Below are positions 1 through 12,487 of a DNA stretch of 61,728 nt, one piece after another. Position 1 is the stretch's first letter. Each line of letters opens with the position of its first letter. Below the pieces are notes generated by a model. That model saw only the letters and a list, made by a program, of their open reading frames with translations. It did not search any database and was not told where the DNA came from. The position numbers and the translations under genes were made by a program. The stretch comes from an uncultured Alphaproteobacteria bacterium. Its GTDB lineage: Bacteria > Pseudomonadota > Alphaproteobacteria > HIMB59. The DNA is taken from assembly GCA_902527525.1 (NCBI GenBank), contig CABZOW010000001.1, positions 1 to 61,728 of the forward strand, read 5' to 3'.

Positions 1-386
1 AAATTTTCAATAAAGCCATATTGAAACTGACTCTGAGTATTAACATCAAAATTAGATTTATAATATTTATTATAATCCTCATGATTAGAAATTCTAAAAT
101 CAGAACTAAGATCTATAATTTTAACTTTTGATATTAATTCTTTGACATATCTATGAGCTGAGCCGTGAGGTAATGCTAAAAAAACACAATCTAAATTTTT
201 AAAATCATCTAGATTATCTGTTTGTATGTCTTTTAAATTTAATGATTGTAAATGAGGAAACTCCTCATCAATCGATAATTCTCTTTGAAATATTTTTGAT
301 AGCCTTACATTTGGATGCATAGAGAGAATTCGTATTAATTCTATACCTAAATAACCATTAGCTCCTATTATACCTACTTTAATCAT
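1..386 (-). CDS. argC: N-acetyl-gamma-glutamyl-phosphate reductase, 5' part (runs off window start; absent from ORF track)
   Basis: Manual translation from ATG at 386 gives MIKVGIIGANGYLGIELIRILSMHPNV...CVFLALPHG...IIDLSSDFR...YGFIE, open to the window edge. It has the GxxGY, ALPHG and DLSxDFR motifs of type-1 ArgC. Confidence 0.93.
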   Translation of the reverse strand, partial: MIKVGIIGANGYLGIELIRILSMHPNVRLSKIFQRELSIDEEFPHLQSLNLKDIQTDNLDDFKNLDCVFLALPHGSAHRYVKELISKVKIIDLSSDFRISNHEDYNKYYKSNFDVNTQSQFQYGFIEN

Positions 387-1425
387 TATTAATCCTATTG
401 ATTATCTTAGCAAAAACATTGACATGGTTAGTTGAATTATAAATATTTAAAAAGTCTGAATTAGGTATAGAAAATTTATCGATAGATTGTTTGTAAGCAG
501 AGACATTATTTGTAACAGGTCCACTTATGATCAACAGTTTATCATCTAGATTATTAGATTTTAGGTTCTCAATTATATTAACTGCCCCTGATACATCATA
601 AGCACAAATAATAATTACATCGATTGACTCCGTAATTTCAGTATTTTGAATGATTTCCTTCGTTCCATAATCTCCGTGATAGCCGTCCCCTAATTCCATT
701 AAAATTATTTCTGCATCTTCTGACATATCACTAATAATAGAGGCTGAGCAATTTTGTATAGTTTCTTTATCATTCATACAGGTGCTAGGCAGACCATAAT
801 CTACAAAATCTGATGTTTTATAAGCTCCATTATCTTCGTAAGAGTATAAATCTTTCTGGGAAGCAGTACCTGCTAACTTACAGGCATTAATTCTTTTATA
901 ATAATTACTAAGTGTTTTAATTATAAAAGAAGTTACTGTCGTTTTTCCTGAGTCTATACCAGTGCCTATGACAGCAATAGATGGAACTTTGTTTTTTATC
1001 GTCTTTTCTTTAATTTTTGAATAATTAACTAAATTCAATTGTTTATTACTATTATTTATAATAGATCCAAGCACCTCGCACTCTGTTGCAGGACCTAAGA
1101 GAATATTGAAATCTTTACAAATACCAATGACCCCTCCTAAGTTTAAAATATGGATTTTATCGTGTTTATTTAATTCAGATGGCACAGATCCTGTCATTCC
1201 TGAGGATGCAATCCGATTACCTAAAGCACCAAAGATAATATCTCCTTCAGTTAGTTCAGTAATTCTTCCAGAAATTAACTCTAGCTTATTGTAATTAGGA
1301 TTAACTGAAATTACTTTTACTGCAATTAGTTGCCCTTGATTACAATCAATCAAATCAGAGATACTCAATTCATCAATATTATTGATGTTTTTAAGTACAG
1401 AGCCTATTTTTTTAGTATAAATCAT
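379..1425 (-). CDS. DUF1611-like P-loop NTPase-fold protein, function unknown
   Basis: 348 aa with N-terminal GALGNR...LNLGGVIG motifs, Walker-A-like GTGIDSGKTT, KLAGTA..KD, DFVDYGLPST and ELGDG. Overlaps the argC start by 8 nt. Confidence 0.65.
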   Translation of the reverse strand: MIYTKKIGSVLKNINNIDELSISDLIDCNQGQLIAVKVISVNPNYNKLELISGRITELTEGDIIFGALGNRIASSGMTGSVPSELNKHDKIHILNLGGVIGICKDFNILLGPATECEVLGSIINNSNKQLNLVNYSKIKEKTIKNKVPSIAVIGTGIDSGKTTVTSFIIKTLSNYYKRINACKLAGTASQKDLYSYEDNGAYKTSDFVDYGLPSTCMNDKETIQNCSASIISDMSEDAEIILMELGDGYHGDYGTKEIIQNTEITESIDVIIICAYDVSGAVNIIENLKSNNLDDKLLIISGPVTNNVSAYKQSIDKFSIPNSDFLNIYNSTNHVNVFAKIINRINND

Positions 1426-1501: not shown

Positions 1502-2689
1502 CTAAAGCTTTAAATTTCGCACATTTTTAGCCGCTTGGCGAATTCTTTGCTCATTTTCTACTAGCCCTATTCTCACAAAACCCTCACCATATTCACCAAA
1601 AGCAATACCTGGTGAAACAGCTACATCAGCCTTTGTCATTAAATCCTTAGCAAATTTTAAAGATCCCTTATTTTGATACTTTTTGGGTATAGGTGCCCAT
1701 GCGAACATACTAGCTTTAGGACTAGGGATGTTCCAACCTGATCGTGACATAGACTCAACTAAGACATTTCTTCTACTTTCATAAATTGACCTAATTTCAG
1801 AAACACAAGATTGAGATCCATTAAGAGCTGTGGCTGCAGCAACTTGGACGGGAGTAAATGCTCCATAATCTAAATAAGATTTAATTTTAGTTAAAGCCTC
1901 AATTAGTTTTTTATTTCCAACAGCAAATCCAATTCTCCAACCAGCCATAGCATAAGTTTTTGACATTGATGTAAACTCAACAGCAATATCTTTGGCTCGA
2001 TTAACTTGTAAAATTGAAGGTGGTGGTTTCTTATCAAAGTATATTTCTGCATAAGCAAGGTCTGATAAAACATAAACATTATATTTTAATGCCATCTGAA
2101 TAATTTCCTTATAAAAATCTAAGTCGACTACTTGCGCTGTTGGATTAGATGGGAAAGAAACTATCAATGCCACAGGTGAAGGTGAACTATTTCTAATAGA
2201 GCGATCTAGTCTTTCTAAGTATGTTTCAGGATCAAAAATACCATCTTTCATTGTTTGTAGATGTCTTAGTGAAGCACCCGCTATTATAAAACCATATGGA
2301 TGTATCGGATATGAAGGATTAGGCGAAATAATAATATCTCCGGGTGTTGAAATTGCTTGGGCTAAGTTAGCCAAACCCTCTTTAGAACCCAAGGTTACTA
2401 TAACTTCACTATCAGGATTTAATTTAACACCAAATCTTTTTTGATAATATTTAGCTTGAGCTTTTCTTAAACCAGGTACGCCCTTACTAATTGAGTACCT
2501 ACCTGTTCCTGGTTTATCTGTCACTTCTTTTAATTTATCTCTTATATGTTTAGGTGTTGGCATATCTGGATTACCCATGCCAAAATCTATAATGTCTTTG
2601 CCGTTTTTTCTAAGTTTTGCTTTAAGTTTATTTATCTCTCCAAATATATAGGGAGGCAAACGATCAATTCTGTTAAAATCATGTTTCAC
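1502..2689 (-). CDS. alaC: PLP-dependent class I/II aminotransferase (AlaC/YfdZ-like; often annotated LL-DAP aminotransferase)
   Basis: RLPPYIF, DFGMGNPD, GSKEGLA, FPSNPT, SDLAY and SMSKTYAMAGWRIG (PLP lysine). GTG start. Confidence 0.75.
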   Translation of the reverse strand: MKHDFNRIDRLPPYIFGEINKLKAKLRKNGKDIIDFGMGNPDMPTPKHIRDKLKEVTDKPGTGRYSISKGVPGLRKAQAKYYQKRFGVKLNPDSEVIVTLGSKEGLANLAQAISTPGDIIISPNPSYPIHPYGFIIAGASLRHLQTMKDGIFDPETYLERLDRSIRNSSPSPVALIVSFPSNPTAQVVDLDFYKEIIQMALKYNVYVLSDLAYAEIYFDKKPPPSILQVNRAKDIAVEFTSMSKTYAMAGWRIGFAVGNKKLIEALTKIKSYLDYGAFTPVQVAAATALNGSQSCVSEIRSIYESRRNVLVESMSRSGWNIPSPKASMFAWAPIPKKYQNKGSLKFAKDLMTKADVAVSPGIAFGEYGEGFVRIGLVENEQRIRQAAKNVRNLKL

Positions 2690-8710: not shown

Positions 8711-10438
8711 TTAATAGTTTGTAATCCACATAGTTTGGTAAGCTTTAAGAGTTATTGTAGATTTAATATCAATAATAATTTCATTAGAAATTAAATCCCA
8801 CCACTCATTAGAGGAAATTAAATTTAATTCTGATAAATCTAAATATTGAAAAACATTAGTAACATTACTAACACAAAAAATAGATTGCCTTTTATCGTGA
8901 CTTTGTCTCCAAAAGCCAAAAAAGTTTTTTCCTAAATTAAATGTAAATTGAGTGGCGTTTGGATGAAAAGCTGGTTGATCTTTTCTAATATCGATTAATT
9001 TTGATAACTCACTGTAGATCTGATTATTTAAGGAGTCTTTGTCACTAAGTAATTTATCAATTTCATCAAACTTCCATGATCTTCTATTGATAGATCTCTT
9101 GTTATTTGTTTTCTCAACTTGTTTATAGTCATTAGTAGATCCAACGAGACTGTGTATATAAATAGCTGGTATTCCCTCAATACCTAACATCATTGAATGA
9201 CAACATATAAATCTTTCTAACTGCATGTGATCAGTTCCAAAAAAAGTACCTTTAAGAGCATCGAGTAGAGAAATATTTATTTCATAGACAGACTCTGTGT
9301 TATCAACTTTTTTTCTTTTAGTGGTCTGACCGCCAAAGTCAGTCATGATATCTACTAATGTGTCTCTTTCTTTATCAGTTAAAATACCCTCTGTAGGTCT
9401 AAGACCAATTCCATCATGAGAAGCTATAAAATTAAAATAAGAGGTATTATCTTTTGCAGGGGGCATGCCCATTGACCACTTTCTAATAGCTGTGCTGTCA
9501 CCCATTACCAAAGTCCATAGCAACAAAGGAGGTAAAGCAAAGTTATATATTGCATTAGCCTCATCATTTTCTCCAAAATAACTAAGATTTTCTAAATTTG
9601 GTAAATTCGTTTCAGTGATAAGAAGAGTATTTTTACTATATGCATTTAAAAGAGTCCTAATGAGTTTAACAACTTCATGTGTTTGAGGTAAGTTTAAACA
9701 ATTAGTTCCATATTCTTTCCACAGAAAAGCAATAGCATCTAATCGAAATACTCTTATACCATTTTTTAAATATAAATGGATTAATTTGATAAAGAAGAAA
9801 AGAACCCTAGGGTTTTTGAAATTAAAATCTACCTGGTCATGGCTAAATGTGCACCACAAATAAAAAGTCTCATCATTGATTGAATACTTTTTAAAAAGAT
9901 CTGAGCTTCTTGGACGTACAACACTCTCATATCCCTCTTGTACATTTTTCAGTTTGATAAAAAAATTTTGTGTATCTTCTTTATTTTCAATAAAGTTTTT
10001 GAAATATTTACTTTTTATAGAGGCATGATTTATAACTATATCGCTCATAACTCTAAAATCTTTTGACAATAATTTCATATCTTGCCAGTTACCTAAATCA
10101 GGTCTTACAATTTCATAATCTGTAATAGAAAATCCGTCATCAGAGCTATATGGGAAAAAAGGCAAAATGTGAACATTATTGAAATGGTCCTTACAATATT
10201 TATTTAAAAATTTAGATAGTGCTTTTAATTTATTATCAGAGGTTTCAACTATAGAGTCACCATATGATATTAAAAAAATATCTTTTTGTGACCAATTTGG
10301 TTCAGTAATACCCTGATCTTTGTTTTCAAATAAATCTAAAACCTTATTAATTAATTTTAAAATCTCATTCTGATCTAAGATATCTTTATAAATAATTTGA
10401 AAGTGGATATTTAAATTATTTTTTAATTCTTCTCTCAA
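8711..10438 (-). CDS. GH13_18 sucrose-phosphorylase family enzyme, probably glucosylglycerate phosphorylase
   Basis: HILPFFP.SSDDGF, TFSHDQ.D, RLDAIAFLWK, TETN, ASHDGIG and YEIN. The ETN/YEIN signature matches the glucosylglycerate phosphorylase (YcjM-like) branch. Confidence 0.82.
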   Translation of the reverse strand: MREELKNNLNIHFQIIYKDILDQNEILKLINKVLDLFENKDQGITEPNWSQKDIFLISYGDSIVETSDNKLKALSKFLNKYCKDHFNNVHILPFFPYSSDDGFSITDYEIVRPDLGNWQDMKLLSKDFRVMSDIVINHASIKSKYFKNFIENKEDTQNFFIKLKNVQEGYESVVRPRSSDLFKKYSINDETFYLWCTFSHDQVDFNFKNPRVLFFFIKLIHLYLKNGIRVFRLDAIAFLWKEYGTNCLNLPQTHEVVKLIRTLLNAYSKNTLLITETNLPNLENLSYFGENDEANAIYNFALPPLLLWTLVMGDSTAIRKWSMGMPPAKDNTSYFNFIASHDGIGLRPTEGILTDKERDTLVDIMTDFGGQTTKRKKVDNTESVYEINISLLDALKGTFFGTDHMQLERFICCHSMMLGIEGIPAIYIHSLVGSTNDYKQVEKTNNKRSINRRSWKFDEIDKLLSDKDSLNNQIYSELSKLIDIRKDQPAFHPNATQFTFNLGKNFFGFWRQSHDKRQSIFCVSNVTNVFQYLDLSELNLISSNEWWDLISNEIIIDIKSTITLKAYQTMWITNY

Positions 10439-10439
10439 C

Positions 10440-11651
10440 TTATGCGTTATCTTCTTTTACAGCTTTATTAAAGCTATCTAAAATTGTTGGATCTGCACTG
10501 TCAATTCTTCTCCATGTTGGAATGTTGGGATTTTCACTTGGAGACTCTAAAAAAATCTTACCTGCTTCAATAATATTTTGTGCAAACAATTCAACCATTT
10601 CCTCTTCTTTATGTACGTCAAAGTCCAAGCCATTCATTTCAGCGTCTGTTTTGTATATTTGAACCATATCAAGAGCCATACGAAAATATGTAGCTTTTAA
10701 TGAACGAAATTTTTCATGAGAAAATACCTGACCTTGTGTCGCCAATTTTCTAAAAATAGCTTTGGAAATGTCAATAGTCATTTTAGATAAACCTTTTTGT
10801 CTATTATTTTTTGAAACTTCCTGGTGTTTATGCTCATAGGTCTCTGCTAAATCAACTTGACAAATACGATTATTAGCAAAATTTCTATACATTTCAGACA
10901 GTATACCAACCTCCAAACCCCAATCGTGAGGAACTCTGATATCATTTAATAAATCATACCTAAATGAGAATTCACCAGCTAAAGGATATTTAAATATATC
11001 CAGAAAATTAAGATATTCGTTATAACCAACCATTTTTTGTAAAGATTTCACTAAAGGTGTTACTAGTAATCTTGTAACCCTTCCATTCATTTTTCCTTGA
11101 GCTACTCGGGGGTAAAAACCTTTGCAAAAATCAAAAGAAAACTTTGGATTTGCAACAGGGTAAAATAACTTTGCTAATAAATTTTTATCGTAAGTTACAA
11201 TGTCACAATCGTGCATAGCTACTGTTCCGGAATCTTTTAAAGAAATTACAAAACCCATGCAGTACCATATGTTTCTACCCTTACCTTTTTGTAATGGAGA
11301 TAAATCTAAACTAGATAAGACTTGATCTATTTTTTTTAATCTAGGACCATCGTTCCAAAGGATAAAAGTTTTTTGTGGCAGAACTGAAAAAAACTTTTTA
11401 GCTTTTAAAAATTCATTTTTATTTGCTTGATCAAGGCCAATAACTACATTTTTGATATATTTTACTTTTTTTAAAGTATTAACAATATAAGTTAGGGCTG
11501 GTTTTTCTAATTCAGAATAAAGAGAGGGTAAAATTAAAGTCATAGGAGATGTTTTTGAAAAAGATAAAAGATCTTTTTCAATCTGTTCAATTTTTTTTGT
11601 ATTAAAATTATGTAGCGTTGCTATGACACCGTTTTGATGAAAATCAGGCAT
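10440..11651 (-). CDS. gpgS: Glucosyl-3-phosphoglycerate synthase (GT-A, marine/cyanobacterial type)
   Basis: DFHQNG..TLH, PSLYSEL, GKGRN.W, HDCDI, KG.Y.R, GRVTRLLV, YPLAGEF, DWGLEVG and YEHKHQ. Confidence 0.85.
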   Translation of the reverse strand: MPDFHQNGVIATLHNFNTKKIEQIEKDLLSFSKTSPMTLILPSLYSELEKPALTYIVNTLKKVKYIKNVVIGLDQANKNEFLKAKKFFSVLPQKTFILWNDGPRLKKIDQVLSSLDLSPLQKGKGRNIWYCMGFVISLKDSGTVAMHDCDIVTYDKNLLAKLFYPVANPKFSFDFCKGFYPRVAQGKMNGRVTRLLVTPLVKSLQKMVGYNEYLNFLDIFKYPLAGEFSFRYDLLNDIRVPHDWGLEVGILSEMYRNFANNRICQVDLAETYEHKHQEVSKNNRQKGLSKMTIDISKAIFRKLATQGQVFSHEKFRSLKATYFRMALDMVQIYKTDAEMNGLDFDVHKEEEMVELFAQNIIEAGKIFLESPSENPNIPTWRRIDSADPTILDSFNKAVKEDNA

Positions 11652-11653
11652 GT

Positions 11654-12487
11654 CTAAAAAATTTTGTTCTCCAATGTTTGATTTAATTTATAAAGGACTT
11701 GAGTCCAACCGTCAGGTGCAAACTTTGATGACTTCAATATATTTTTTTTATTTGAACGCAACTTAGGGAAAGATCCAGATGGATTATTTATAAGACATGG
11801 GTAACTAGCAGAATTTAACATATCAATATCATTTTTACTGTCGCCAAGAGCTATAGTATTTTTAGAGTATGTACCATAAAATTGATTATCATATATATGA
11901 GATATTAACTTTTTAGCTATTCTTTTGTTGCATACAGATGAAACTTGCATGAATCTACTACCTTGTATTAACACTCCCTGTTTTTCAGATCTAAGCTCAT
12001 TTTTAAATTTTCTTAAATATGACAAGCTATCTTCCCAGAGAATAATTTGACTAGCCTCTCTATTTAGCATCTTACTAGTATTATCTAAGTTTGTGTATTT
12101 TTTTAAAATCTTAGAGGGAAGATCTTGGGCTATTAGAAATTTAAATTTTTTTTGTTTTTTTAATAAAAATTGATGCCAATTCTTAGAGGATAATTTTGCA
12201 ATTCTAATTTTCCAAAATTTTCCGTAATCAAATGAGTTCTTAATTTTCTTGAAACGATTTTTTGGAAAATATAAAAGTGCCCCATTCTCTGTGCTAAAAG
12301 GCATATTTGTTAAATTTAATTTTTTTAATAAATTTATAGACTCAATAAATGTCTTACTTGTATTAAAAATAACATCATTTTCATTATTGATAATACTAGT
12401 AATAGTTTTTTTATTATTACCGTAGGAGTAATTTTCATGATCTAATAAAGTTCCATCGAGATCAGTGAAGATTAGATATTTTTTCAT
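11654..12487 (-). CDS. gpgP: HAD-IIB glucosyl/mannosyl-3-phosphoglycerate phosphatase
   Basis: TDLDGTLLD, TSKT, ENGA and ALGDSKND; adjacent to gpgS. Confidence 0.8.
   Translation of the reverse strand: MKKYLIFTDLDGTLLDHENYSYGNNKKTITSIINNENDVIFNTSKTFIESINLLKKLNLTNMPFSTENGALLYFPKNRFKKIKNSFDYGKFWKIRIAKLSSKNWHQFLLKKQKKFKFLIAQDLPSKILKKYTNLDNTSKMLNREASQIILWEDSLSYLRKFKNELRSEKQGVLIQGSRFMQVSSVCNKRIAKKLISHIYDNQFYGTYSKNTIALGDSKNDIDMLNSASYPCLINNPSGSFPKLRSNKKNILKSSKFAPDGWTQVLYKLNQTLENKIF

What the first reader, a model, noticed from the sequence alone, without database searches (positions are those of the whole stretch)
1..1425. DUF1611-like P-loop protein translationally coupled to argC: candidate new arginine-pathway enzyme
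Seen: the 348-aa ORF's stop overlaps the argC ATG by 8 nt, which implies an operon, and it carries GTGIDSGKTT. Established: DUF1611 includes DgcN, a glutamate N-acetyltransferase of D-Glu catabolism. ArgC needs N-acetylglutamate (ArgA/ArgJ) and its phosphate (ArgB). Inference: this diverged subfamily may be a non-orthologous N-acetylglutamate synthase or kinase, or may route D-Glu/N-acetyl-Glu into arginine synthesis. The family assignment is from motif memory, not a search.
Basis: partly seen in the sequence, partly recalled or inferred. Interest (0 to 1): 0.72.

Follow-up and report, generated by a model that had tools for sequence, protein, structure and literature searches.

The report
Succinyl-route stand-in for arginine's first enzyme
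This unnamed gene heads an argC-argB cluster in a small-genome marine bacterium that lacks the usual first enzyme of arginine synthesis; it likely fills that step by attaching a succinyl group to glutamate, a role already predicted but untested for its family, here in an unusual layout that would need the lysine enzyme DapE to remove the tag again.

Summary
In detail: a 348-aa ORF (379-1425, minus strand) with a P-loop overlaps argC by 8 nt. It is not DUF1611 proper. It belongs to the family of Steroidobacter ACG33_RS14135, which GapMind 2026 predicts, untested, to be an alternative N-succinylglutamate synthase. The scan noted this family before on other DNA (e1-5457969).

It heads ORF-argC-argB, so it is not the kinase. 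It never co-occurs with argJ (33 versus 21 of 61 genomes, none both; 0 of 50 distant carriers) or with full-length argA.

New here:
(1) argB and argC resemble foreign operon copies, while argD and argF look native.
(2) All 54 operon ArgBs read have Arg before the substrate-binding Arg, like 3 of 3 Bacteroidota kinases and 0 of 46 controls. This is a candidate succinyl signature.
(3) The genus, a closed genome included, has ordinary ornithine carbamoyltransferase, no ArgE was found, and DapE is the only core deacylase candidate found.

This suggests a hybrid route, succinylated up to ornithine and standard afterwards. No activity was tested. Acetyl, ATP-ligase and ArgJ-like transacylase readings remain open.

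The parts
379..1425 (-). 348-aa predicted alternative ArgA (N-acyl-, likely N-succinyl-glutamate synthase): beta-rich N-terminal domain (about residues 1-140) plus BioD/DgcN-like P-loop domain (140-348)
   Evidence: (pLDDT 93.1)
937..966 (-). Walker A / P-loop GTGIDSGKTT, residues 154-163; G160, K161, T162 are invariant in 256 of 256 core homologues, as are K183, D192, E244, D277 and R71
379..386 (-). 8-nt overlap of the ORF stop with the argC start (translational coupling inferred)
   Evidence: 8 nt in 28 of 30 loci
3..386 (-). [quoted passage not shown]

Best explanation
The ORF heads an ORF-argC-argB module that stands in place of argJ in this genus, and it is likely the first enzyme of arginine synthesis, predicted to transfer succinyl from succinyl-CoA to L-glutamate. 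Inferred route: the co-acquired ArgB and ArgC phosphorylate and reduce N-succinylglutamate; native ArgD transaminates it; the succinyl group is removed from N-succinylornithine, most likely by DapE, the only core deacylase candidate found; ordinary ArgF, ArgG and ArgH finish. Shown: gene order, coupling, family, presence and absence pattern, residue signatures. Inferred: every enzyme activity, the acyl donor and the DapE step.
For: Family: motifs read by eye from the Steroidobacter insert of plasmid map pALF12 match the consensus along the stretches read; GapMind 2026 predicts this protein as N-succinylglutamate synthase. Context: ORF-argC-argB with adjacent argD in 10 of 10 fetched order-level loci and in closed genome G140; at least one arg neighbour in 69 of 69 distant genome loci (argC 62, argR 57, argD 56, argG 48, argF' 38, argB 37, argH 29) and 17 of 22 metagenome loci. 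Gap filling: ORF in 33 of 61 genomes, argJ in 21 of 61, none both, and the one sister-family genome with the ORF (G050) lacks argJ; argJ 0 of 50 and full-length argA 0 of 50 distant carriers; short ArgA 0 of 5. One ORF-AA_kinase fusion, P0257. Succinyl: neighbouring ArgF' has T/S/V/A at position 92 in 45 of 46 and never Glu; ArgB has Arg before the substrate-binding Arg in 56 of 56 operon rows (54 distinct loci) and 3 of 3 Bacteroidota, against 0 of 46 controls; B. fragilis ArgB is reported to be an N-succinylglutamate kinase (PMC7311316 passage); an AstE-type desuccinylase fills the ArgE slot in L191. Co-replacement: genus ArgB and ArgC score higher to distant operon copies (143 and 264 bits) than to sister-family copies (79 and 160), ArgD the reverse (283 native vs 215). 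Hybrid end: ArgF is OTCase-type (296 and 274 bits vs 105 and 100 for ArgF'); no ArgE over cut-off in 37 genus genomes; G140 holds only DapE and an allantoate amidohydrolase among M20s; G022, G448, G021 and G010 show one M20 each; no AstE in 4 of 4; no arginase in 6 of 6.
Against: No activity has been measured for any family member; GapMind lists it as unconfirmed although a plasmid exists. The genus has no ArgF', so the usual succinyl diagnostic cannot be applied here. The ArgB Arg may be an inherited clade trait: operon and Bacteroidota ArgBs lie outside the acetyl clade, the 30 proteobacterial controls were the top TIGR00761 scorers and 10 more are close kin. That this residue lines the acyl pocket is recalled, not found in passages read. 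Two of the three Bacteroidota operons have Gln at ArgF' 92. No paper passage read shows DapE acting on N-succinylornithine. The fold match to DgcN (Z 12.7) is below BioD (15.2) and CTP synthase (14.4), covers one domain only, and DgcN was not among the Foldseek rows shown. One unassigned GNAT exists in G140 and G022. Kin are not independent: the order-level pattern may reflect one or two gains.
Confidence: 0.5

Rival explanations
1. Same step, but an ATP-dependent ligase: it activates free succinate (or acetate) as an acyl-phosphate and joins it to glutamate, as dethiobiotin synthetase and other SIMIBI amide ligases do.
For: G160-K161-T162, K183, D192 and E244 are invariant in 256 of 256 core homologues; the best PDB sequence hits of the profile are BioD, with K183 aligned to the BioD lysine after the P-loop helix (E 0.008); BioD Z 15.2 exceeds DgcN Z 12.7; an outer relative lies among ATP-grasp genes in a biosynthetic cluster.
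Against: DgcN has the same fold and is described as an acetyltransferase; that it uses acetyl-CoA without ATP is recalled, since the paper is not held. The BioD sequence hits are marginal.
Confidence: 0.17
2. Acyl-CoA-dependent N-acetylglutamate synthase: this lineage keeps the acetyl route and a promiscuous hydrolase frees ornithine.
For: ArgD and ArgF are native acetyl-route type; DgcN transfers acetyl; no ArgF' is present to demand succinyl.
Against: ArgB Arg signature; ArgB and ArgC appear replaced together with the ORF, which an acetyl product would not need; relatives' ArgF' are succinyl type in 45 of 46; no ArgE found.
Confidence: 0.15
3. Functional analogue of bifunctional ArgJ: it both primes glutamate and recycles the acyl group from N-acylornithine (or N-acylcitrulline) to glutamate, filling the ArgA and ArgE gaps at once.
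For: Two gaps and one unknown gene in this genus; Steroidobacter also lacks the expected ArgE; only 4 of 32 distant operons read past argB hold an M20 gene; S214/T215 are S or T in 256 of 256 and could be an acyl acceptor.
Against: A separate deacylase directly follows argB in 9 of 49 distant genomes (read together), in 5 metagenome operons, and an AstE-type gene in L191; 48 of 50 distant carriers have some ArgE/DapE-like M20. No ArgJ domain. Donors would differ (citrulline vs ornithine form) between lineages.
Confidence: 0.14
4. Replacement acylglutamate kinase, D-glutamate salvage enzyme, or non-catalytic partner of ArgB/ArgC.
For: P-loop; the cluster ArgB is below the TIGR00761 cut-off (130 vs 151 bits) and scores similarly to the ArgA kinase-like domain; one fusion to ArgB.
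Against: The ArgB keeps K19, G22, R79, N175/D179, D198 and G231-M232-K235, and its best PDB hits are kinases; it is the only ArgB-level match per genome; this reading leaves the first step empty.
Confidence: 0.04

Closest known systems
[quoted passage not shown]
   Same: Same protein family (motifs compared by eye), length about 350 aa, arg-operon location, exclusion with classical ArgA, remote fold match to 7XRJ, missing ArgE.
   Different: Here it replaces ArgJ in a streamlined marine lineage, in a three-gene module without argF', argG, argH or argR; the host has ordinary ArgF. The argJ exclusion and the ArgB residue signature are not in the text I read.
DgcN / DUF1611 (PF07755; PDB 7XRJ, 2OBN), D-glutamate N-acetyltransferase
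   Same: P-loop domain fold (Z 12.7 and 13.4); weak PF07755 hits in 22 of 53 homologues; acylation of a glutamate amine is the inferred shared chemistry.
   Different: 7-12% identity; no PF07755 hit for this ORF; the N-terminal 135 residues did not align to 7XRJ; arg neighbours rather than D-amino-acid catabolism genes.
Dethiobiotin synthetase BioD (PF13500)
   Same: Z 15.2, Walker A and the following lysine aligned.
   Different: Below the Pfam cut-off (20.9 vs 27 bits); extra N-terminal domain; no biotin genes nearby.
Bacteroides-type succinylated arginine pathway (PMC7311316)
   Same: Likely succinyl tag; ArgB with Arg-Arg motif.
   Different: Bacteroidota operons read start with a GNAT gene and use ArgF' plus an M20 gene; this genus has neither and would remove the tag at ornithine.
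Bifunctional ArgJ (PF01960)
   Same: Occupies its place in the order: mutually exclusive in 61 genomes.
   Different: No sequence similarity found; recycling activity untested.

Membership tests
GapMind predicted alternative ArgA (ACG33_RS14135 family) | Sequence homology to ACG33_RS14135 | tested here: met
   By-eye reading of the pALF12 insert gives DKIGS, LELNSGR, GALG, LNIGG, GTCMEAGKT, K-ATG and ELGDG in the order of the consensus; P0080, which shares its FPYLGERIG segment, is 31% identical to the ORF over 336 aa (E 1e-54). No tool alignment or bit-score ratio to the Steroidobacter protein itself was run.
GapMind predicted alternative ArgA (ACG33_RS14135 family) | Located in an arginine synthesis cluster | tested here: met
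   69 of 69 and 17 of 22 distant loci
GapMind predicted alternative ArgA (ACG33_RS14135 family) | Not in genomes with classical ArgA | tested here: met
   No second AAK-domain match of ArgA size in the genus; 0 of 50 distant carriers with full-length TIGR01890; most genomes are incomplete, G140 is closed but was tested for argJ, M20, AstE, GNAT, argF and arginase only
GapMind predicted alternative ArgA (ACG33_RS14135 family) | Neighbouring ArgF' with a succinyl-type residue at position 92 (supporting trait) | tested here: not met
   No ArgF' found in this genus; ArgF is OTCase-type and unlinked. Met in distant relatives, 45 of 46. This is the variant feature.
GapMind predicted alternative ArgA (ACG33_RS14135 family) | N-succinylglutamate synthase activity | not testable with these tools
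   needs assay; unconfirmed in the paper too
DUF1611 / DgcN | PF07755 above gathering score | tested here: not met
   no hit at E<=0.1; weak hits in 22 of 53 homologues, best E 4.7e-5
DUF1611 / DgcN | Shared P-loop domain fold | tested here: met
   7XRJ Z 12.7, rmsd 3.7, 182 aligned; 2OBN Z 13.4; not specific, many SIMIBI proteins score alike
DUF1611 / DgcN | Shared N-terminal domain | tested here: inconclusive
   7XRJ alignment starts at residue 136, 2OBN at 77; the single-domain model failed (pLDDT 30.5)
DUF1611 / DgcN | Linkage to a DgcA-type racemase (feature recalled) | tested here: not met
   no recurrent non-arg enzyme neighbour of that kind; judged from gene lists and clustering, no racemase profile was run
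Dethiobiotin synthetase BioD | PF13500 above cut-off and biotin context | tested here: not met
   20.9 vs 27 bits; arg context
Acylglutamate kinase ArgB | Amino-acid-kinase domain | tested here: not met
   no such hit; separate ArgB in the cluster
ArgJ | PF01960 domain | tested here: not met

The most novel reading that the evidence does not exclude
A streamlined, abundant marine lineage swapped argJ/argB/argC for a foreign three-gene succinyl module and runs an undescribed hybrid arginine pathway: a P-loop-fold enzyme makes N-succinylglutamate (possibly straight from succinate and ATP), an Arg-Arg kinase reads the succinyl tag, and the tag comes off at ornithine through the lysine enzyme DapE or through the ORF itself, so that no ArgE is needed.
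Probability: 0.4. Interest if true: 0.72.

Novelty: new variant of a known kind. Interest (0 to 1): 0.52.

Why it matters
It makes a published but untested prediction easier to test and sharper. A closed 1.4-Mb genome leaves few alternative genes, and the analysis names substrates, a specificity residue in ArgB and a dual role for DapE. If true it adds a new fold to the enzymes that start arginine synthesis and a third pathway layout (succinylated early, unacylated late). It would give a one-residue marker for succinyl routes in genomes without ArgF', and correct false arginine-auxotrophy calls for this lineage and for many Acidobacteriota, Planctomycetota and Gemmatimonadota. It also warns that E. 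coli argA complementation is likely the wrong test.

Tried and rejected
Kinase reading: rejected. DUF1611 membership by profile: not met. Single-sequence PDB search found nothing significant. Foldseek gave only generic SIMIBI GTPases (top HypB, E 3e-6). The N-terminal domain folded alone without alignment failed (pLDDT 30.5), so its fold is untested. ESM Atlas returned only unnamed or weakly DUF1611/MobB/CbiA clusters. Promoter scan 1-2800 was at chance level (17 vs 16.0 expected) with no terminator. PF04768 search rang in no control, so it is uninformative; PF04952 rang in one control only and was repeated with PF24827. RNA runs: all shares were 0.13 or less; contigs of relatives from 4 seawater RNA libraries cover the ORF and two cross the ORF-argC junction, but contigs show no transcript and DNA carry-over was not controlled, so this is not used. 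The upstream aminotransferase (1502-2689) was left out of the module: 76-nt gap, absent in G050 and distant operons. Outer relatives (147-197 bits, 8 of 398 other class genomes) are not counted as family: no arg gene in 7 of 7 neighbourhoods read, argJ present in 3 of 3 tested. A first motif count of ArgB (53 of 55) had two mis-matches and was replaced by an alignment count. A donor lineage was not established: long branches and composition bias. No complex prediction was run. Papers PMC3329491, PMC8220418, PMC11270798 and PMC12363236 (passages) gave nothing on the acyl pocket, on DapE with succinylornithine, or on DgcN chemistry.

Full report
Observation. The window is the start of contig C1 of a 50%-complete genome. 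A 348-aa ORF lies at 379-1425 on the minus strand. Its stop overlaps by 8 nt the start of an argC that runs off the contig. The overlap is 8 nt in 28 of 30 loci where both genes were seen, out of 33 examined. GC is 0.30 against 0.284 for the window. The host is a small-genome marine bacterium: relatives have about 1.4 Mb and a member of a homologue's 90% cluster is labelled Pelagibacteraceae. Alphaproteobacterial placement is inferred.

Family. Pfam and NCBIfam name nothing above cut-off. The first search gave 172 homologues, the profile 1540, and 659 representatives at E<=1e-30. The AlphaFold model from 53 sequences is confident (pLDDT 93.1): a beta-rich N-terminal part and a SIMIBI-type P-loop domain. 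The latter aligns with TM0796 (Z 15.3), BioD (15.2), CTP synthase (14.4), a DUF1611 protein (13.4) and DgcN (12.7), at 7-14% identity. DgcN is therefore a remote relative among several. In 256 core homologues R71, G160-K161-T162, K183, D192, E244 and D277 are invariant.

Prior art. GapMind 2026 (PMC13759103; I saw the abstract, outline, passages, part 1 of 3 of S1 Text, parts 2-3 of 14 of the plasmid maps and supplement searches; preprint passages) predicts Steroidobacter ACG33_RS14135 as an alternative N-succinylglutamate synthase. Its grounds are arg-operon location, exclusion with ArgA, a weak Foldseek match to 7XRJ and ArgF' position 92. It is listed as unconfirmed; a plasmid map exists but I saw no result. 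Figure S2 and the figshare table were not visible and may include this lineage. Read by eye, the plasmid insert carries this family's motifs in order, so the ORF is filed in that family. The scan reached the same assignment earlier on another genome (e1-5457969); I had read the paper before seeing that note. The DgcN paper is not held; its chemistry beyond 'D-glutamate acetyltransferase' is recalled.

Context. In 10 of 10 fetched loci from the order, and in closed genome G140, the layout is ORF-argC-argB with argD adjacent, at most two inserted genes away. The ArgB keeps the kinase motifs, which removes the kinase idea. A scan with one distant homologue gave 69 confirmed loci of 192 candidates, mostly Acidobacteriota with some Planctomycetota and Gemmatimonadota; all 69 have an arg neighbour. 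A second scan gave 22 metagenome loci, 17 with an arg neighbour; the five without are on contigs under 6 kb. One protein fuses the ORF domain to an amino-acid kinase.

Which gap. The ORF is in 32 of 37 genus genomes and 1 of 24 sister-family genomes; argJ is in 0 of 37 and 21 of 24; no genome has both. The five genus genomes without the ORF also lack the argB match, four being 54-74% complete and one 94%. Among 50 of the 69 distant carriers, none has argJ and none a full-length argA. A short ArgA profile found nothing in 5 of 5. argG was found in 3 of 4 and argH in 4 of 4 near-complete genus genomes. These genomes are kin, so the counts are not independent tests.

Which acyl group. ArgF' beside distant homologues has T, S, V or A at position 92 in 45 of 46 (position fixed by the PDB variants), agreeing with GapMind. 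This genus has no ArgF', so I looked at ArgB. The residue before the substrate-binding Arg (Arg66 of E. coli, PMC3236213 passage) is Arg in 56 of 56 operon rows (54 distinct loci; two genomes were counted twice) and in 3 of 3 Bacteroidota kinases. It is Arg in 0 of 46 controls, which have Leu, Met, Asn, Gln or once Lys; solved kinases shown have Leu, His or Phe. B. fragilis ArgB is reported as an N-succinylglutamate kinase (PMC7311316 passage). An Arg there would suit a succinyl carboxylate, but that it faces the acyl pocket is my recall. The trait may be inherited, and the controls lean to canonical enzymes. ArgB and ArgC are closer to distant operon copies than to sister-family copies, while ArgD is closer to native ones. 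This is what a substrate change would require if ArgD accepts both tags (E. coli ArgD's dual role is recalled; only the title was seen).

The odd end of the pathway. ArgF is ordinary ornithine carbamoyltransferase type, just under the curated cut-offs but far above ArgF', so the tag must come off at ornithine. No ArgE passes cut-off in 37 genus genomes; the core match is DapE, beside a dapD-like gene, and an accessory M20 appears in 4. G140 has DapE and an allantoate amidohydrolase only, no AstE and no arginase. Either DapE doubles as N-succinylornithine desuccinylase, or the ORF recycles the acyl group like ArgJ, or an unsearched hydrolase acts. Distant operons sometimes carry their own deacylase (9 of 49 genomes; 5 metagenome operons; AstE-type in L191), which favours a plain synthase role for the ORF. 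Listings from five paper searches showed no title on this hybrid route or on the ArgB residue; that library lacks most subscription journals.

Verdict. I put about 0.95 on a role in making the acylglutamate, and 0.5 on the specific reading of succinyl-CoA transfer with separate tag removal. ATP ligase (0.17), acetyl (0.15), ArgJ-like (0.14) and other (0.04) share the rest. The new content is the argJ displacement, the candidate succinyl signature in ArgB and the inferred hybrid route. Interest 0.52.

Noticed in passing
window 1502-2689 (-): Class I aminotransferase directly upstream in the genus loci read; passes the PRK09148 'LL-diaminopimelate aminotransferase' cut-off (670 vs 648) although the genus has dapD-dapE. 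If it were a true DapL it could free DapE for arginine use; an alanine/aspartate transaminase role is as likely.
   Followed up: partly
window 8711-12487 (-): Alpha-amylase-family protein, a 403-aa protein with no Pfam hit and a HAD-like phosphatase in a row; looks like a glucosylglycerate or mannosylglycerate compatible-solute cluster (label recalled; one search tested the first two).
   Followed up: no
G050, L035:9484-13562: Sister-family genome (92% complete) with ORF-argC-argB-argD co-oriented, no argJ, and no argF, argG or argH match: ornithine-only use or assembly gap.
   Followed up: partly
G021 (whole genome): 94% complete genus member without ORF, argB or argJ match but with argF: possible loss of ornithine synthesis or gap.
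   Followed up: no
L191:5718-16567: Operon argG-argF'-ORF-argC-argD-argB-AstE-like-argH followed by an AstA-like gene: synthesis and succinyl catabolism genes side by side.
   Followed up: partly
L186:6542-9026: Homologue named for Candidatus Gracilibacteria (P0052) with only a divergent argH-like gene nearby.
   Followed up: no
L188:1865-3529 and L189:471-2135: 554-aa form with a C-terminal extension of no Pfam family and no arg neighbour on short contigs.
   Followed up: partly
L234:2730-11418: Outer relative on a Priestia plasmid inside a phosphonate-peptide-like cluster (two ATP-grasp genes, carbamoyltransferase, M20, PEP mutase family).
   Followed up: no
L270-L276, L235: Outer subfamily in other alphaproteobacteria sits before ABC exporters, a beta-aspartyl peptidase or an M20 gene, and coexists with argJ; an uncharacterised sister function.
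   Followed up: partly
L178:1285-2448: Genus DapE differs from sister-family DapE at conserved-looking motifs (ATES for VGEP; K before the NVIP motif); any link to a wider substrate range is untested.
   Followed up: partly
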